A stretch of DNA of 49,594 nucleotides, the filler included, from Sphacelaria rigidula (taxonomy: Eukaryota), in NCBI GenBank assembly GCA_964200075.2. It is 3 parts of 3 records of this genome, joined end to end, with 100 filler letters (N's around TTAATTAATTAA, not from the genome) between each part and the next. Parts side by side here need not be neighbours in the genome. Positions count along the whole stretch, not along the records: positions 16,570 to 33,034 come from CAXNAA020001349.1; 2 more parts are not named here. One strand, given 5' to 3'. The first letter of the stretch is position 1; each line of letters starts with the position of its first letter. Both the position numbers and the translations under genes were made by a program. This document shows positions 10,181 through 42,140 of the stretch, in pieces. The notes below the pieces were generated by a model. The model had not been told where the DNA came from and made no database searches. It worked only from the letters and a program-made list of their open reading frames with translations.

Positions 10181-10320
10181 GGGGGGAGGGAAGGGGGGGG
10201 GGGGGGGGGGAAATGCAAGTTTTGTGGAAAAAGAGGGGGGGGGTCGGGGGGGGAAAAAAAGCAAAGGGGGGTGTAGGAAGGTTTTACAGGNNNNNNNNNN
10301 TGTGGGGGGGGGGGGGGGGT

Positions 10321-16469: not shown

Positions 16470-16569
16470 NNNNNNNNNNNNNNNNNNNNNNNNNNNNNNN
16501 NNNNNNNNNNNNNTTAATTAATTAANNNNNNNNNNNNNNNNNNNNNNNNNNNNNNNNNNNNNNNNNNNN
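16470..16569. other. Artificial contig linker
   Basis: 44 N + TTAATTAATTAA (stops in all six frames) + 44 N. Confidence 0.98.
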
Positions 16570-28641: not shown

Positions 28642-31600
28642 AAGCAATCACACAGTAGCGGCCGATTATCCTCACGTATTCTCAACCGTCTACTCGCCAA
28701 CCCTCCCGTCGAAACCGATATCTAAAACGTCTGCTTTATGCTTCCCGAGCGGTTGTTTTTACTACACCGGCAACTGCACCGCTGCCGGTACACATGATGA
28801 ACAATGCTCTTCTCAGCCTCCGTATGAACTCAAAAACACGAACCACAACACAAAAGGAGAGCTTGGCTGTCGATAGCGCTGCACCTCGAACTGTGTTCAC
28901 CTCAACTCCGTGACTCGCTGAAAAAAGCACCGCAGCCGGCCGAAGGGCGGCAAGGGCTTCTATAGGATAATATAACAATGTCCTTGGCATGGTTTGTACT
29001 CGACGTATATTTTCTCATCACTATGTTCTCATATATTCTCTTGATTCGATATACCGATTCGTCGATATATCCACAGCCGTCGGAGGGGGTACATGTTAAA
29101 ACATGTTGCTCGGGAGGCAACCTCGTGTCCAGCACATGCCGACACGAATCCAACGTGGGTTACGGCATCTTTACTGCCAATTACAGCACACGTCAAGACC
29201 CGGATGGATGCTGTCTACGATGCAAAGTATGGACATGTATCGAAAACCGCATCGATCCGTGTAGGGTGTGGCTCCTACTCACCGTTTTGTATCTTCCGAG
29301 GGCAAGTAGGCAGGGCATGGCATAATGAGGGTAGGTTACATGGTTGTTGTCTGTGGAGAAGCGCTTTTGCAGGATGGTATCAGAAGAACTGATTGTACGC
29401 CAGCGGTGATATCATCATTGGCAACCAGAGACGTGTAACACCGTGTGGTCGGCATGGGAACAACTTATCAGACACGATTGCAGTCAGCCTCAGTCACGTC
29501 GAACAAGAGCGAGAACAAGAGTGGTCCATGTGATGGTAGGCTTGTAAGCACTTGTGTCTTCAACCGATTGTGTGTGCCCTATTTCAATCAACCTTTTATC
29601 AATCATTCCCTTCGCTCGAGTTCCCATAATTATTAGGGAGTGGTTGCGTTTTGTTTACCTTGGGTGCATCTGTCTTGTGACCACGCCTCGATTTCTCGGG
29701 AATCACTGAGTGTGCGACAATCGAACACAGAGAGCCCATATGCGGCCTTGGGGAGAAATGAACAAATGCCACCACATGTTCAAAGTAACCACGAACAAGA
29801 CGCCGAGGTCACAAGAACTTGTGTCTGTCGATCTGCTGATGTAACTTCCTCCCAACCGTTATTTCCGGTCTCGAGTTAGGGGCTGGATGCGATTTGATCC
29901 TAGAGTGATGTTTACACGTCCTGTGCACTCAGATGGAGGGTAGGTATGATGTGAAGGTGCTATCCTGTTTTGATCTTCTTGATTGGCGAGAGCGCCATTT
30001 TTTCGGGGACTAACGTGTCCAATGTGTTGGTGCAAAACATACTTCTTCTAGTGTGCTCTAGACTTGTGCTTTTCTGCTCCAAAACCTCGGTTCTAGTCCA
30101 CGCCAAACGATCCAACTTTATCACGACCATATACAGTGGGGTGTCCCGATCGCGTTGTTGTGATTTATCGTGACACACACGGAGGGCAGGGTATATGGCA
30201 TATCTCCCTGCACATGTGAAGCCATATTCATTCGCAAACTCGGCATCAACTCTCGAGGCATACTATGGAGGAACGTGAAGTAAATGGGGTGGTCCATCAT
30301 GCCTTCTTGGAAGATAGTCCATGTGTTGAGGACAGATGATGTGGTCATGCATTCGTTAGTAGCTGTCTACCAGAATTCATTGGGTCGTCATGTACCGGTG
30401 TTGATGCGGGAGTTGAGCTCCTTACAAACGCCAACCAACGCGAAATCGATGTCTTCAAGCATAGGCTTCACGCCTCAAGCGATACCGTGACTTTACTAGT
30501 TCCCCAGGGAATGGACAGTCCGTAGTCAGTAGACACTGGTACGTCCTACTCTTTCAACGAGCTAACTTGAGTGATTTTATTAGGCTAAATTTCGAAGTGT
30601 ATAGTCTAGCCATTCATGTTGTGTCTCCTGGTTGAGTTGAGTCTTTGTGTGCTGAGTAGATCCAGCATTCAGCAGGGCACTTACTATAGCTTCTCGCATG
30701 AAGAGGTAAACATGTCAGTGCGTGTCACTCTAGTCCTCATAACCGGTATTTCCCAGGTGGCTTCTCAGAACGTCGTCTTTCTGAGCTATCGCTTGGTGGA
30801 TCAGTCGATATTGACCGAGAGTAAAGTAGGATTTCATAAATTTTCGGTAGGGTTGCCGACTCATTCACGGGAAGATCATCTTCGGTTGTTCACCCCGTTT
30901 TTAGTAGTGTAGTTTCACGTGCTTGGTCGATCAGTTTCCGTACTCGTGTGCTGCATGCATGTCAACTGGCTGTGGAGACACTGACGGTTTGTAGCCATCC
31001 GTCGCCGAGGATCCTACCTGCCTTTTGAGGCCCGCAGCCGCCGGCCGGTTGTGTCAATACGCACCGATACATCGGCAGCACGTATTAATGCAGAAATTTG
31101 CAGAATGATACTTGTGATGACCTTAAAATCCTCTTAATCATACAACTTCGCACGATCAAATGGCGGGATTTTAGTGAAGGAAGTTGTAGAGACATTTGTG
31201 ATCTACATACATTTGAATTTCATGAGCTTCCCCCATTACGCAACTGACAACACGGAGGGGTGGGCTATAAATTCCTTGTAGAGGCTCGAGATCTTACTTT
31301 CAATCATGAAAAAAATACATCCCGTTGTGTGTGTGTTTTTTATCGATATTATTTACTCGTACTGCTGTTTTTGGCCGTAGTGTATGGCATTTGTTTGTGT
31401 TGCTTTTTACATGAGCTGCACCATCAAGTGGAGAATCCAGTGGAGAAAATATGCAGAGTTTTGCAAACTTCTATACCGGAGGAATCGTCAGCACTATGTT
31501 CTGTTTCGGAAATGGAACGTTTAACGAAGCAAATGCGTACCCGGTCTTATCACATAGTGGAGGCCCATGGAAGATATGCACAGCCTGTGTTCACCATTTT

Positions 31601-31839
31601 TCCTCGAAGTACTGTATATCGCGGTTGACGAACACTTGAAAATCTTGACGGCTTTTGAAACGTTTAATATTTTCAGGCAGCGTCAGGAACTGTCTGCCCC
31701 TCTTGTTCGGCTATGAGACGGTGAGACTGCTAGAAGCAGCCGAAAGTGTTGCGCAGGAGCCTCTCGCTTCACCAGCGTAGAGGTGGTACGAGCTTGGCAG
31801 TGCCCCTACAGGGGCTGCTTGAGATGACCATCAGATAGC

Positions 31840-33034
31840 GTGACGGGCGTCAACGTCCTGGAGGTGTTTGCGAAAAGGGTTTGGATGGACGATGAAGTCA
31901 GCAAGGAGTGCGACATCGATGAAGTAAGCGAGGAGTGCGGCACCGAGGGCTGCTTTAAGAAGCCATCGTACTCTGTAGTAGGAAGCCTGAAGGCGGAGTT
32001 CTGTGCCGCCCACGCCAGGTCCGGGATGATGGGTGTGAAGAGCAAGAAGTGTGGCCACAAGGACTGCTCTAAACAACCATCTTTCGGTGTAGCGAGAAGC
32101 CGGAAAAGGGAGTTTTGTGCCGAGCACGCCAGGCTGGGGATGGTCAATGTGAAAAACAGGGAGTGCGGCAACGAGGGCTGCTTTACACATCCGTCGTATG
32201 GTGTAGCGGGAACTCGGAAGGCGCAGTTCTGTGCCGCCCACGCGAGAGTGGGGATGGTCAATGTCGTGAGCGAGGAGTGCGGCAACGAGGGCTGCTCCAA
32301 ACTCTCCCCGTACGGTGTAGCGGGAAGTAGAAAAAGGGAGTTCTGTGCCGACCACGCCAGGCCGGGAATGATCGATGTAGTGAACAAGAAGTGCGGCAAC
32401 GAGAGCTGCTCCAAACTCTCCTCGTACGGTGTAGCGGGAAGTAGGAAAAGGGAGTTCTGTGCCGAGCACGCGAGGGTGGGGATGGTTGATGTGGTGAACA
32501 AGAAGTGCGGCAACGAGGGCTGCTCCAAACAGCTATCTTACGGTGTAGCAGGAACTCGGAAGGCGCAGCTCTGTGCCGACCACGCGAGGGTGGGGACGGT
32601 CGATGTAGCGAGCAAGAAGTGTGGCCACAAGGACTGCTCGAAACAACCATCTTACGGTGTAGCCGGAAGCCGGGAAAGGGAGTTCTGTGCTGAGCACGCC
32701 AGGCTGGGGATGGTGGATGTAAGGAACAAGACGTGCGGCAACGAGGGCTGCTCTAAACGACCATCGTTTGGTGTATCGGGAAGTCGGCAGGCGCAGTTCT
32801 GTGCCGACCACGCGAGCGTGGGGATGGAAAATGTAGTGAAAAAAAAGTGCGCCAACGAGAGCTGCTCGAAACTCCCGTCGTACGGTGTAGCAGAAAGTAG
32901 GAAAAGGGAGTTCTGTGCCGAGCACGCCAGGCCGGGGATGGTCGATGTAATGAACAAGAAGTGTGGCCACAAGGACTGCTCGAAACAACCATCTTACGGT
33001 GTAGCCGGAAGTCGGAAGGCGCAGGACTGTAACG
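31840..33034 (+). CDS. EsV-1-7 cysteine-rich repeat protein, partial (truncated at contig end)
   Basis: Nine complete 38-aa (114-bp) repeats plus a partial tenth, starting at 31936. Pattern C-x4-C-x16-C-x2-H, consensus CGNEGCSKxPSYGVAGSRKxEFCAEHARxGMVDVxNKK. No stops or indels in the array. First in-frame ATG at 31885; true start unknown. Confidence 0.9.
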
Positions 33035-33134
33035 NNNNNNNNNNNNNNNNNNNNNNNNNNNNNNNNNNNNNNNNNNNNTTAATTAATTAANNNNNNNNNN
33101 NNNNNNNNNNNNNNNNNNNNNNNNNNNNNNNNNN
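33035..33134. other. Artificial contig linker
   Basis: 44 N + TTAATTAATTAA + 44 N. Confidence 0.98.
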
Positions 33135-33135
33135 C

Positions 33136-33227
<92 letters not shown>

Positions 33228-33228
33228 C
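33135..33228. repeat. (CAA)n microsatellite at contig start
   Basis: About 31 perfect CAA/AAC units. Confidence 0.95.
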
Positions 33229-33426
33229 GATAACAACACTATTCCCAGCTCCAACGTCCACGTCATCTCCGACGCCATTGCAGCCCAAATCAAGCCTGCC
33301 AACATCATCGACCAGACAAAGCCGAAACCACGACCACACGTGCGCTTGAGAGATCCCCTACCCAAGACTACTCCACTGTGGCGACCTAGGACAGCTGCGG
33401 GGGATAATGCGGTTGAAGCAGAAACG
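33136..33426 (+). CDS. Candidate upstream exon (poly-Asn plus low complexity) of the RRM gene, 5' truncated
   Basis: Open AAC frame N(n)DNNTIPSSNVHVISDAIAAQIKP...DNAVEAET ends at a phase-0 donor ACG|GTAAGC. It joins in frame to the 43830 exon, giving EAET-MFLGNLP. Confidence 0.5.
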
Positions 33427-33899
33427 GTAAGCAAGCAATCTCGAATTGAACGAAGAAATCGAAAAGCGTTGAAATCAGATCGTATGGCCGAAAAAAAAGC
33501 GTAACCCGTCAGCACGAGACAACTGTCAAAATATAATTGTTCGCTGACCTTTTCAGCGCCGCTAACGCCGATTCTTGAGAGAAGCATATAGATACTCCAG
33601 TTTTTTTTTGCGAATCGTCATCCCAGCCTGGTTACAAAATATCGCCGTATTCCGCCGCCTGCAACCCCAACTCGTGTATCATGTTGTCAAATTGAAGTAA
33701 TTGTTTCTAACTCTCTTTCCTGTTGATCAAATAGGGATTTGCCTCTTCACTGCAAATATAGTGGAGATTTTCACTCATATATACGCCACTGCTGAGTTCT
33801 GTGGCTTGATTCTTATGCGCGCGAATGCTCAAGCAGTAAAATATCCAAATATGTTCACTGCGCAGTTTTCGTTGTTTTTTTATTTGTCACATTTTCAAT

Positions 33900-40535: not shown

Positions 40536-42140
40536 TTGCTCCGACGCCAGGGACACCAGGGTTCTCCAAGGAACGCTACAGCAGATCATGCAGCTCTTCG
40601 ATGTCTACATGCAATGCAAGATACGAACCCATTTACCCGTTGGATAATCGCTTCACAATCATATGTCTTCATGGTCAGAGACAAACCGGGGAAACTTCAT
40701 GTCATTTCGGACATCCTCTCATGACAACACCAGTTTCAGATATCAGCTGGGAAGCTCGACAGTTAAAAGCCGGTACAAAATAACAGAGAGTTGTTCCCCG
40801 TGAAAGCAGTATGCGTAAGCGCTTCGAACGTCATGTCAGTCGACCGCGAAAACTGCAAAAACAGCAAGCACAGGAGTACGCACACTGTGTCGGGGTTGCC
40901 AACGCCGAAACACGGTCCACAACCGGCAAAAATTGTCAATAGGACACGTTCCAGTAAAACGTCAATGCGAAAGAGTGTCGGTAGACCTTGTCGAATACAA
41001 AACAGCTTCGATGTCAAATGCTCGAGTACTATGTAAATATGTACTGTCCGTAATGGGCCACCTCACATGGTATGCTTTGCTCATTCCGATGCGGAGTGTA
41101 CTGGCACGTCGGTAGCCAAAACTCTTGTTGATAGAGTGTTTACTACATTCGGCATCCCGGAAAAGCTGCATTCCGACCAAGGAGTCGAATTTGAAAACAA
41201 GTTAATATACGCATTGTAACAAGAGCTGGATTTCAATAAAAACCGCACGACGCCGTTACGCCCGCAAGGTAATTCAGTGTCGAAAAGAGTCCACTCCACT
41301 ATGCACGCGATGTTAGCTATGCATATCCCAGTTGGAAACAAAATCTGGGCATCTATGCTTCCATTCATACAAATGGCGTACAACACATCCTACCACCATA
41401 CTGTGCAAGATACACCGTTCTTCTTACTGTTCGGAAGACAGCCCGGATTACCGATTGACATCATCCTCGGCATACAAGCAGCAACAGCCGAAGAATTTTT
41501 CAAAGAAACACGGGAAAACTTACAGTTGGAATTTGAACTTTCGAGACAAGCTCTACGAGAAAGAGCAAATGAGCAAGAAAACAAGAACACCGAATCAACG
41601 TCGTTCCCAGTGTTCAAACCCGGTCAAAAGGTACTCCTTTATCGACCATACCAGGACTCAGAAGGGCCGAACCCGAAATTCCAGTTACCACAGAGAGGAC
41701 CTTTCACCACAACTGAGAGACGATCGCCGGTTGTTTACAGAATCAAAAGAGGCGATGATTTCACAGAAGTGTCAGTACATATCGCTCACCTGGAGAAATA
41801 TCACCCTAAACAGACACCACCAGCAACAGATTTCGATAAGTCGAGCGAGTTGTTCCTAGGCAAACGGATACCTCTACCAGAGATAGACCAACTTGACGAA
41901 GCGCCGCCTAAAATAGAGCGTTACGTTGTGGAAAAAGAAGTGGGCCACGCTCCAGGACCAGGCCGGAGAAGGGTTTATGACTATGAGTATCGGTTGAGAC
42001 TCAAAAGCTACGGCTCAGCAGCCGACCAAGCCTACAGAGCTGATGAAGTACCACAATGCAAACATTTCATCGATGAATATCGTCATGGCAATGGGTTAGC
42101 AGAATGCTCACGTCCAGATCCATTATCGAAAAATACCTGA
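40536..42140 (+). pseudogene. Gypsy pol relic: RNase H C-terminus, integrase core and chromodomain-like tail
   Basis: ADHAALRCL..RW..QSY..KPGKLHVISDILS; RVSVDLVEY; FGIPEKLHSDQGVEF; RPQGNSVSKRVH (third catalytic E appears replaced by K); AYNTSYH..TPFFLLFGR; RYVVEKEVGH..YRLRLKSYG..D..CKHFIDEY. Stops and frameshifts occur upstream of 41277. Confidence 0.9.

What the first reader, a model, noticed from the sequence alone, without database searches (positions are those of the whole stretch)
31936..33034. Long intact EsV-1-7 Zn-finger-like repeat array with hypervariable positions: candidate modular, TALE-like recognition protein
Seen: at least 10 exactly phased 38-aa repeats with invariant C1, C6, C23 and H26 and a basic SRK(R/A) patch. 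Variation is concentrated at a few sites: position 9 reads K,Q,H,L,L,Q,Q,R,L,Q and positions 35-36 read KS,KN,VS,VN,VN,AS,RN,VK,MN. Known: EsV-1-7 repeats are shared between the phaeovirus EsV-1 and an expanded brown-algal family that includes Ectocarpus IMMEDIATE UPRIGHT; their ligand is not established. Inference: a fixed scaffold with a few variable residues per repeat is the architecture of programmable nucleic-acid readers (TALE, PPR, C2H2), so the array may encode a repeat-by-repeat recognition code, perhaps in antiviral or developmental control.
Basis: partly seen in the sequence, partly recalled or inferred. Interest (0 to 1): 0.8.

Follow-up and report, generated by a model that had tools for sequence, protein, structure and literature searches.

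The report
Brown-alga-type EsV-1-7 zinc-repeat gene
This is the front part of an ordinary member of the large EsV-1-7 cysteine-rich repeat gene family of brown algae and giant viruses, cut off by an assembly gap; its repeats vary too broadly to look like a TALE-style one-repeat-one-base code, and what the family binds is still unknown.

Summary
Window 31885-33034 (+) is one open frame with a 17-aa head, nine complete 38-aa repeats and a tenth cut by a scaffold linker. Cys1, Cys6, Cys23 and His26 are invariant, and the frame matches Pfam PF19114 at E 4.6e-137 with 10 stretches.

The TALE-like reading is only partly supported.
- Variation is broad: 29 of 38 positions vary. Positions 9, 35 and 36 hold 19% of the array's entropy.
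- The repeats fall into three subtypes that persist without those codons.
- dN is below dS in 44 of 45 repeat pairs.
- The AlphaFold model (pLDDT 85) is a small beta/zinc-knuckle unit with a one-turn helix. It has no solved counterpart.

Some evidence points the other way. The same positions are the most variable in 89 related arrays. In giant-virus relatives, arrays of variable length precede a conserved C-terminal domain. Earlier scan notes on other DNA read that domain as a nuclease.

My best reading is a basic zinc-repeat array that binds DNA or RNA through multi-residue surfaces. This is inferred, not shown. The locus is a new member of a known family.

The parts
31670..31676 (+). Splice-acceptor-like site (ttttcag); possible start of the coding exon at about 31677
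   Evidence: Sequence. Contigs of runs X2 (record 12) and X3 (record 18) match 31673-32018 with 0 other letters. They carry 110 and 25 further letters on the upstream side that do not lie on the stretch. Contigs of X1 (record 6) and X7 (record 30) run through from 31438. This is a weak hint only: X2 and X3 are merely guessed to be RNA and come from one study.
31885..31935 (+). Start codon and 17-residue acidic head (MDDEVSKECDIDEVSEE), made of two degenerate 27-base copies of a repeat tail
   Evidence: First ATG after the in-frame stop at 31825-31827. Tandem Repeats Finder reports period 27, 2.1 copies, at 31890-31946. pLDDT is below 50 at residues 1-5 and 8-11.
31936..32961 (+). Nine complete 38-aa (114-base) EsV-1-7 repeats with C-x4-C-x16-C-x2-H spacing
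   Evidence: phasing, invariant residues; PF19114, E 4.6e-137; pLDDT 82-96 over these blocks.
32962..33034 (+). Tenth repeat, first 24 residues only; the last three codons (D-C-N) depart from the consensus
   Evidence: pLDDT is below 50 at residues 370-380.
33035..33134 (.). Scaffold linker N44 + TTAATTAATTAA + N44 that truncates the gene; what follows need not be adjacent in the genome
   Evidence: An identical linker stands at 16470-16569.

Best explanation
Window 31885-33034 is the 5' part of a nuclear gene of a brown alga or close relative. It belongs to the expanded EsV-1-7 cysteine-rich repeat family.

Each 38-residue repeat most likely folds on its own around one zinc ion. The ion would be held by Cys1 and Cys6 (a knuckle) and by Cys23 and His26 (the start of a one-turn helix), with short strands at positions 12-14, 20-22 and 31-33. 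The repeats follow each other without spacers. Together they form an elongated, positively charged array.

I think the array works as a targeting or tethering module that binds a polyanion. DNA is the most probable ligand and RNA is possible. Binding would go through the conserved basic residues (K8, R18, K19, K37, K38). Some selectivity would come from several variable surface residues per repeat (9, 29, 35, 36 and others), probably grouped round the knuckle at each repeat junction. The protein would then act as a regulator.

Shown: family membership, phasing, an intact frame under purifying selection, a confident fold prediction, and family-wide variability at the same positions.

Inferred: zinc binding, the ligand, and the regulatory role.

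The array grew by duplication of repeat subtypes, and it continues into the assembly gap.
For: Membership: PF19114 at 446 bits, 10 stretches. 559 relatives reach E<=0.001 among 8000 candidates scored. The named ones come from Sphacelaria, Ectocarpus, Pylaiella, Ascophyllum and Laminaria, at 30-59% identity.

Ligand set within one repeat: homologous arrays begin at C1 and end after H26..V34, for example P0005 and P0007.

Fold: AlphaFold2 with a 121-row alignment gives pLDDT 85.4 and pTM 0.57. A three-repeat model gives pLDDT 85.5. Secondary structure falls at the same repeat positions in all nine repeats.

Selection: pooled pN/pS is 0.51, and 44 of 45 repeat pairs have dN below dS. The most recent duplicates show 0.07/0.24, 0.09/0.25, 0.07/0.32 and 0.09/0.37.

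Charge: pI 8.97, K+R 64 against D+E 44, and net 0 to +5 per repeat. The mean is +2.2 over 588 family repeats.

Variable sites are shared. Within-array entropy is highest at positions 9, 36 and 35 in 51 arrays. Positions 9 and 36 are in the top three both in 37 arrays that carry a C-terminal domain and in 52 that do not. The two profiles correlate at Spearman 0.79.

Fusions that fit a DNA-targeting module:
- 12 of 12 giant-virus ORFs that I aligned carry, behind the array, a conserved ~165-aa domain with invariant D, E-x-D-E, H, R and N-P.
- 63 of 150 relatives carry this domain.
- It is found in 6255 cluster representatives at E<=0.001.
- Of the best 150 representatives, 130 have at least 1 and 93 have at least 3 Cys-repeat motifs in front of it.
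- A passage of PMC12477816 reports an Ectocarpus Tc1/mariner transposase with an N-terminal EsV-1-7 domain.
- A passage of PMC12629598 records the zinc-finger transcription-factor hypothesis of Macaisne et al. 2017.

Weak hint of a spliced transcript: contigs of X2 and X3 leave the genome at a ttttcag site at 31673, where contigs of X1 and X7 run on.
Against: No experiment on zinc, DNA or RNA binding exists in what I could read.

The only helix has three residues, so there is no recognition helix of the C2H2 kind.

No nucleic-acid-binding fold, nor any other fold, matched. Foldseek's best E-values are 1.0 and 1.3. VIA-align's best Z is 2.5. The weak rows (RING, LIM, B-box, PHD, nsp13 zinc domain, GRF) are mostly protein-binding zinc modules.

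pTM 0.57 leaves the overall shape of the array uncertain.

The nuclease nature of the viral C-terminal domain was not established here. The best PDB profile hit is 2eo0 at E 0.53. Pfam Hjc appears at E 0.1 in 1 of 12 sequences. NCBIfam and PHROGs give nothing useful.

That domain is absent from 0 of 36 named brown-algal relatives and from every ORF of 40 aa or more in this window. The fusion argument therefore carries over only by homology of the repeats.

The C-terminus of this gene is unknown because of the gap. The order of the repeats inside the array could not be verified from the short public contigs.
Confidence: 0.55

Rival explanations
1. The array is a protein-protein interaction scaffold. 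The zinc repeats would act like LIM, RING, B-box or PHD modules, and the variable junction residues would select protein partners rather than nucleic acid.
For: The only structural rows returned, though weak, are such modules: RING Z 2.5, 2.4 and 2.0; LIM, B-box and PZP/PHD at Foldseek E 1-10. There is no recognition helix. Per a passage of 10.64898/2026.04.27.720984, the Ectocarpus family members carry no other Pfam domain. Graded variability over many surface positions is what protein-binding repeat families show (general knowledge, recalled).
Against: All structural matches are within noise for these tools. The array is basic (pI 8.97). The repeats sit in front of a conserved domain with acidic, catalytic-looking invariant residues in giant viruses. 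They also sit at the N-terminus of a transposase (PMC12477816 passage). These are places where DNA-binding modules are usual.
Confidence: 0.3
2. One reading: a programmable TALE/PPR-like reader. Each repeat would specify one base or a short word through positions 9 and 35-36.
For: The same positions are the most variable within arrays family-wide. Position 9 is among the five most variable in 47 of 89 arrays, and position 36 in 39 of 89. The residues at those sites are mostly R, Q, K, H, N and S. Viral relatives join arrays of variable length to a constant C-terminal domain.
Against: The three sites hold only 19% of the entropy here and a median 14% in 89 arrays, against 9% if evenly spread. 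29 of 38 positions vary. The residues follow repeat subtypes inherited by duplication: of 73 within-subtype differences, only 12 fall at positions 9, 29, 35 and 36. At position 9, pN is 0.46 and pS is 0.77. The predicted unit is not a helical solenoid. pTM is 0.57.
Confidence: 0.07
3. The locus is a decaying or mis-assembled copy without function, for example a collapsed repeat at a contig end.
For: The frame ends at a scaffold linker, and its last three codons depart from the consensus. Hundreds of similar contigs from the same organism lie on the array: 1545 were laid for X1, of which 913 are only 90-95% alike. Collapse or chimeric joins are therefore conceivable.
Against: There are 383 codons without a stop or frameshift. 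dN is below dS in 44 of 45 repeat pairs. Exact public contigs from three studies cover parts of the array with 0-2 other letters: 31438-32018, 32109-32365, 32640-32760 and 32731-32890.
Confidence: 0.05

Closest known systems
EsV-1-7 cysteine-rich repeat family (Pfam PF19114 / InterPro IPR043822): EsV-1 gene 7, the brown-algal expansion, Ectocarpus IMMEDIATE UPRIGHT
   Same: The motif C-x4-C-x16-C-x2-H, the 38-aa period, tandem arrays, and no other recognised domain. Passages of 10.1101/2024.02.19.579948 describe 2018 such proteins in 31 genomes, often in tandem gene arrays, as a possible novel zinc finger.
   Different: This copy has at least 10 repeats, at the long end of the family. 15 of 150 relatives have 10 or more, and the maximum is 16. 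It has only a 17-aa head, whereas IMM has a unique N-terminal domain and five repeats (passage of the same preprint). No paralogue lies within this 49.6-kb window. The best identity to any database protein is 59%.
Giant-virus proteins with an EsV-1-7 array followed by a conserved C-terminal domain. Earlier scan notes read that domain as Vsr-like, of the 'EDxHD' homing-endonuclease type (I-Bth0305I, PDB 3r3p, PMC3239194).
   Same: Homologous repeats at 30-40% identity. The same positions are the most variable within arrays.
   Different: The window and its 36 named brown-algal relatives lack the C-terminal domain. This gene's own C-terminus is hidden by the gap. I could not confirm the nuclease assignment.
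TALE, PPR and PUF repeat proteins (modular nucleic-acid readers)
   Same: Tandem repeats of 34-38 residues with recurrent variable positions.
   Different: Those are all-helical solenoids without metal, and their specificity sits in one to three residues (recalled knowledge). Here the unit is a zinc-knuckle/beta fold, and 29 of 38 positions vary.
Zf_WRKY19 (Pfam PF24906), a repeated plant zinc-finger motif
   Same: Two relatives, P0002 and P0030, also pass this model (35.3 and 35.9 bits, cut-off 27). The match covers the knuckle part of the profile.
   Different: P0001 itself gave no PF24906 match at E<=1. The matches cover about half of the 24-position profile.
C2H2 zinc-finger arrays
   Same: Tandem zinc modules with variable surface residues. 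The family is hypothesised in print to act as transcription factors (PMC12629598 passage).
   Different: The ligand order is C,C,C,H with 4/16/2 spacing. There is a one-turn helix instead of a recognition helix, and no C2H2 Pfam match.

Membership tests
EsV-1-7 cysteine-rich repeat family (PF19114) | Match to the Pfam model above its gathering score | tested here: met
   E 4.6e-137, 446 bits against a cut-off of 25, 10 stretches.
EsV-1-7 cysteine-rich repeat family (PF19114) | Cys/His pattern C-x4-C-x16-C-x2-H in every repeat | tested here: met
   9 of 9 complete repeats have it. The tenth has C1, C6 and C23 before the gap. 588 repeats from 116 of 120 relatives have the same spacing.
EsV-1-7 cysteine-rich repeat family (PF19114) | Tandem repetition with a period of about 38 residues | tested here: met
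   Nine intervals of exactly 38. In relatives 38 is the commonest interval (366 cases); the next is 39 (21 cases).
EsV-1-7 cysteine-rich repeat family (PF19114) | Zinc binding by the Cys3His set | not testable with these tools
   Inferred from invariance and from the predicted knuckle/helix geometry.
IMMEDIATE UPRIGHT orthologue | Unique N-terminal domain ahead of five repeats (criterion in passages of 10.1101/2024.02.19.579948) | tested here: not met
   Only 17 residues precede the first repeat, and an in-frame stop lies at 31825-31827. There are at least 10 repeats. The IMM sequence itself was not compared.
TALE-like modular reader | Near-identical repeats with variation confined to about two residues | tested here: not met
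   Repeat pairs are 69-90% identical in DNA. 29 of 38 positions vary, and positions 9, 35 and 36 hold 19% of the entropy.
TALE-like modular reader | Helical solenoid repeat fold | tested here: not met
   The model has strands at positions 12-14, 20-22 and 31-33 and a three-residue helix at 24-26. This is a prediction only.
TALE-like modular reader | One repeat reads one base | not testable with these tools
   Needs binding experiments or a solved complex.
Giant-virus EsV-1-7 array with conserved C-terminal domain | C-terminal ~165-aa domain with invariant D, E-x-D-E, H, R, N-P | tested here: inconclusive
   No ORF of 40 aa or more in the window matches the profile, and 0 of 36 named brown-algal relatives carry the domain. 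But the gene's C-terminus lies in or beyond the gap.
C2H2 zinc finger | C-x2-4-C-x12-H-x3-5-H pattern with a beta-beta-alpha fold | tested here: not met
   The ligands are C,C,C,H at 4/16/2 spacing. No C2H2 family appears among the Pfam matches at E<=1.

The most novel reading that the evidence does not exclude
EsV-1-7 arrays may be a fourth kind of modular nucleic-acid reader, zinc-based rather than helical. A patch at each repeat junction (positions 35-36 of one repeat and 9 of the next, helped by 29) would read a short DNA word. Array composition would then set the target, for nucleases in giant viruses and for regulators such as this gene in brown algae.
Probability: 0.08. Interest if true: 0.85.

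Novelty: new member of a known kind. Interest (0 to 1): 0.3.

Why it matters
The locus itself adds one more, rather long, member to a family already catalogued in brown algae. Passages of 10.1101/2024.02.19.579948 count 2018 proteins in 31 genomes.

The open question is what the family does. Passages of two preprints call it one of the largest gene-family expansions, and the largest orthogroup, of brown algae. One member, IMM, controls early body-plan decisions. No ligand is known.

- The same few repeat positions are the most variable in algal and viral arrays alike.
- The predicted fold has no solved counterpart.
- Thousands of viral proteins put such arrays in front of one conserved domain.

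If the repeats read DNA in a modular way, they would also be of interest as an engineering scaffold.

Tried and rejected
Own genome: none is held. Genome-wide repeat statistics and dN/dS over all paralogues could not be done.

Expression:
- No RNA holder is listed.
- Runs X2 and X3 are only guessed to be RNA, and both belong to one study.
- Their contigs give next to no cover of 29500-31623 (depth 0-4). Contigs of X1 and X7 do cover it. A part without cover is no evidence.
- No listed contig bridged the end at 33034, so the C-terminus was not recovered.

Sequence search of P0001 against PDB chains: only SoxX at E 0.11.

Fold searches of both models (Foldseek pdb, VIA-align wide): nothing at E<=0.001 or Z>=5. 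This does not show that the fold is new.

ORF after the gap (33136-33501, a poly-Asn run plus a basic tail): no Pfam family and no BLAST hit to the 120 relatives then held. Whether it belongs to the gene is open.

Six other long ORFs of the window: no Pfam family at E<=0.01.

Viral C-terminal domain:
- PDB profile search: best hit 2eo0 at E 0.53.
- Pfam: Hjc at E 0.1 in 1 of 12, zf-A20 in 2 of 12.
- NCBIfam: 0 families.
- PHROGs: only unnamed families at E>=0.016.
- ESM Atlas: neighbours are Nucleocytoviricota hypothetical proteins. One cluster is automatically named 'Endonuclease (Fragment)'. This is a lead only.

Mutual information between positions 35/36 and 9, in the same repeat and in the next repeat: all pairs exceed shuffles (z 2.1-7.6), with no clear preference for the junction pair. 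Relatedness of repeats confounds the test.

Macaisne et al. 2017 (Development 144:409) is not held. I cite it only through other papers' passages.

Supplements are closed. Table S17 of 10.1101/2024.02.19.579948 lists the family's members with coordinates and may already include this gene.

The 342-base period reported by Tandem Repeats Finder does not fit the subtype order A B C C B A B C A. The best partners lie five repeats apart (2-7, 3-8, 4-9) or are adjacent (4-5).

Full report
**What is there**

The stop-to-stop frame 31828-33090 (+) is by far the longest in the 49.6-kb window. Its first ATG is at 31885. From there, 383 codons run open to the first N at 33035.

The product has a 17-residue acidic head followed by repeats of exactly 38 residues. 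The C-x4-C motif recurs ten times at 38-residue steps. Nine repeats are complete and the tenth stops after 24 residues.

Tandem Repeats Finder gives period 114, 9.7 copies, 76% matches and no indels. C1, C6, C23 and H26 are invariant, as are V14, A27, G30 and V34. Pfam PF19114 (EsV_1_7_cys) matches at E 4.6e-137 with ten stretches.

The array ends at a 100-base linker, N44 + TTAATTAATTAA + N44. The same linker stands at 16470-16569. This is a scaffold join, so the gene is truncated and what follows need not be adjacent.

A loose six-frame motif search finds no second EsV-1-7 gene in the window.

**How the variation is distributed**

- 29 of the 38 positions vary among the nine complete repeats, and eleven exceed 1 bit.
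- Positions 9, 35 and 36 hold 19% of the summed entropy, or 25% with position 29 added.
- DNA identity between repeats is 69-90%.
- The repeats sort into three subtypes: A = repeats 2, 7, 10; B = 3, 6, 8; C = 4, 5, 9. Repeat 1 stands apart.
- The same grouping appears when codons 9, 29, 35 and 36 are left out.
- The subtypes differ just as sharply at positions 3-5 and 20-21.
- Of 73 amino-acid differences within subtypes, 12 fall at positions 9, 29, 35 and 36. Of 347 between subtypes, 74 do.

Most of the 'hypervariable' signal is therefore inherited subtype identity. The best partners lie five repeats apart (2-7, 3-8, 4-9) or side by side (4-5). This points to duplication of a multi-repeat block plus a local duplication.

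The pooled pN/pS is 0.51, and 44 of 45 repeat pairs have dN below dS. The exception is 3 versus 8, at 0.19/0.17. Per codon, pN exceeds pS at 20, 25, 29 and 35, and at several codons without synonymous differences. At position 9, pN is 0.46 and pS is 0.77. Nine or ten sequences are too few for a site test. The overall picture is purifying selection on a working frame.

**The family**

559 proteins reach E<=0.001 among the 8000 candidates scored. The named ones are from Sphacelaria rigidula, Ectocarpus, Pylaiella, Ascophyllum and Laminaria. Identity is 30-59%, so no close orthologue is held. Longer relatives exist: 30 hits of 672-2000 aa. 15 of 150 relatives have ten or more repeats by a loose motif, with a maximum of 16.

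588 strictly spaced repeats were taken from 116 of the 120 relatives. Among the 51 relatives with six or more such repeats, within-array entropy is highest at position 9 (1.85 bits), then 36 (1.83), 35 (1.61), 11, 24 and 29. The window's profile correlates with this one (Spearman 0.56, p 3e-4). The effect is modest, though. In 89 arrays with five or more repeats, the three sites hold a median 14% of the entropy, against 9% if spread evenly.

**Structure**

AlphaFold2 on the whole product with a 121-row alignment gives pLDDT 85.4 and pTM 0.57. A three-repeat piece gives pLDDT 85.5.

In every repeat, strands fall at positions 12-14, 20-22 and 31-33, and a three-residue helix at 24-26. Isolated bridge residues appear at position 38 and at position 9 of the next repeat. 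I infer that positions 35-36 of one repeat and 9 of the next lie together round the C-x4-C knuckle. I could not see coordinates.

Relatives start at C1 and end after H26..V34. This fits one zinc site per repeat.

Neither model has a solved counterpart. Foldseek's best E-values are 1.0 and 1.3, and VIA-align's best Z is 2.5. The weak rows are zinc modules: RING, LIM, B-box, PHD/PZP, GRF and the nsp13 zinc domain.

The array is basic: pI 8.97 and net 0 to +5 per repeat.

**Expression**

No run on record as RNA holds the stretch.

Contigs of two runs guessed to be RNA (X2 and X3, one study) match parts of the ORF exactly. Both leave the genomic sequence at 31673, at a ttttcag site, with 110 and 25 further letters. 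Contigs of X1 and X7 run through that point. A spliced messenger would look like this, but it is a weak hint, not proof.

Many hundreds of contigs at 90-99% identity lie on the array (1545 for X1). The organism therefore carries many similar repeats.

**Relatives in viruses**

19 IMG/VR loci, among them three GVMAG contigs, encode relatives at 24-40% identity. All ten ORFs that I scanned are PF19114 arrays of 6-10 stretches.

Behind the array, 12 of 12 aligned ORFs share a domain of about 165 residues with invariant D, E-x-D-E, H, Y, R, R and N-P. 63 of the 150 relatives carry it. None of the 36 with a brown-algal name do, and no ORF of this window does.

A profile of the domain finds 6255 cluster representatives at E<=0.001 and 3841 at E<=1e-10. 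In the best 150, the domain is nearly always C-terminal behind a region of variable length. 130 of these hold at least one Cys-repeat motif there, and 93 hold at least three.

Earlier notes of this scan, made on other genomes, read this domain as a Vsr-like nuclease of the EDxHD homing-endonuclease kind. I read passages of PMC3239194 on that family. I could not confirm the assignment: the best PDB profile hit is 2eo0 at E 0.53, aligned over a PD..E-like stretch. Pfam Hjc appears at E 0.1 in 1 of 12 sequences, and NCBIfam and PHROGs give nothing useful.

Within-array variability has the same profile in arrays with and without the domain (Spearman 0.79). Positions 9 and 36 are in the top three of both.

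**Literature** (passages only, unless stated)

- 10.1101/2024.02.19.579948: 2018 EsV-1-7 proteins in 31 genomes, up to 335 per species, often in tandem arrays. [quoted passage not shown] IMM has a unique N-terminal domain and five repeats.
- 10.64898/2026.04.27.720984: the largest orthogroup of brown algae, of viral affinity. The Ectocarpus members have no other Pfam domain. A term search of this text for AlphaFold, DNA-binding and nucleic acid found no occurrence.
- PMC12477816: a Tc1/mariner transposase with an N-terminal EsV-1-7 domain.
- PMC12629598: the proteins are hypothesised to be zinc-finger transcription factors.
- PMC7457493: IMM is a protein of unknown function.
- Searches for 'EsV-1-7' (11 papers) and for 'EsV-1-7' with 'DNA-binding' (3 papers) turned up no binding experiment and no proposal of a repeat code.

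**Verdict**

The locus is a new, fairly long but otherwise ordinary member of a known family.

The best-supported mechanism is a basic array of independent zinc modules that binds DNA or RNA through multi-residue surfaces and acts as a regulator. Only membership, an intact frame under constraint and the fold prediction are shown. The ligand is inferred from charge and from the company the repeats keep in viruses and in a transposase.

A TALE-like one-repeat-one-base code is not excluded. The distribution of variation, the subtype structure and the predicted fold do not favour it, and I put it at about 7-8%.

Noticed in passing
window 16470-16569 and 33035-33134; also 10291-10300: Two identical 100-base linkers (N44 + TTAATTAATTAA + N44) and one run of 10 N. 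The window is a scaffold of at least three contigs joined with a stop-in-all-frames linker, so order and distance across the joins are not certain.
   Followed up: partly
window 33135-33238 and 33136-33501 (+): Directly after the gap lies a (CAA)n microsatellite of 34.7 copies. In one frame it opens a 122-codon ORF (a 31-residue Asn run, then a basic tail ending ...RMAEKKA). It has no Pfam family and no similarity to the tails of the 120 relatives then held. Whether it is the gene's C-terminus is unknown.
   Followed up: partly
window 41220-42140 (+): A 306-codon open frame with only sub-threshold Pfam matches: Integrase_p58_C (E 0.011) and the Tf2-1-like SH3 domain (E 0.095). It may be a remnant of an LTR retrotransposon integrase.
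   Followed up: partly
P0001 (window 31885-33033): Pfam DUF1490 (PF07371) scores 63.4 bits against a cut-off of 28.4 through two partial stretches on the repeats. I recall it as an actinobacterial family. This is almost certainly a false positive that automatic annotation could pick up.
   Followed up: no
L001-L017 (ORF ends, e.g. L001 6006-6515, L003 5335-5844): A conserved C-terminal domain of about 165 aa behind giant-virus EsV-1-7 arrays, with invariant D, E-x-D-E, H, Y, R, R and N-P. It has 6255 cluster representatives at E<=0.001. Pfam, NCBIfam and PHROGs do not name it.
   Followed up: partly
P0150, P0142, P0136, P0138: Longer relatives carry precomputed Pfam domains beside the repeats: reverse transcriptase RVT_1, EF-hands, an MFS transporter, and electron-transfer flavoprotein. 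These may be real fusions or merged gene models. I did not examine them.
   Followed up: no
window 31978-33034 (tables 1 and 2): In each of four public runs, 1134-1545 contigs at 90-100% identity pile on the array, with very uneven summed depth (for example bin 32450-32567). The source organism carries very many similar repeats.
   Followed up: no
P0002 and P0030: Two relatives also pass the plant Zf_WRKY19 model (PF24906) over the knuckle part of the profile. This hints at a distant link between EsV-1-7 repeats and that plant zinc-finger repeat.
   Followed up: no
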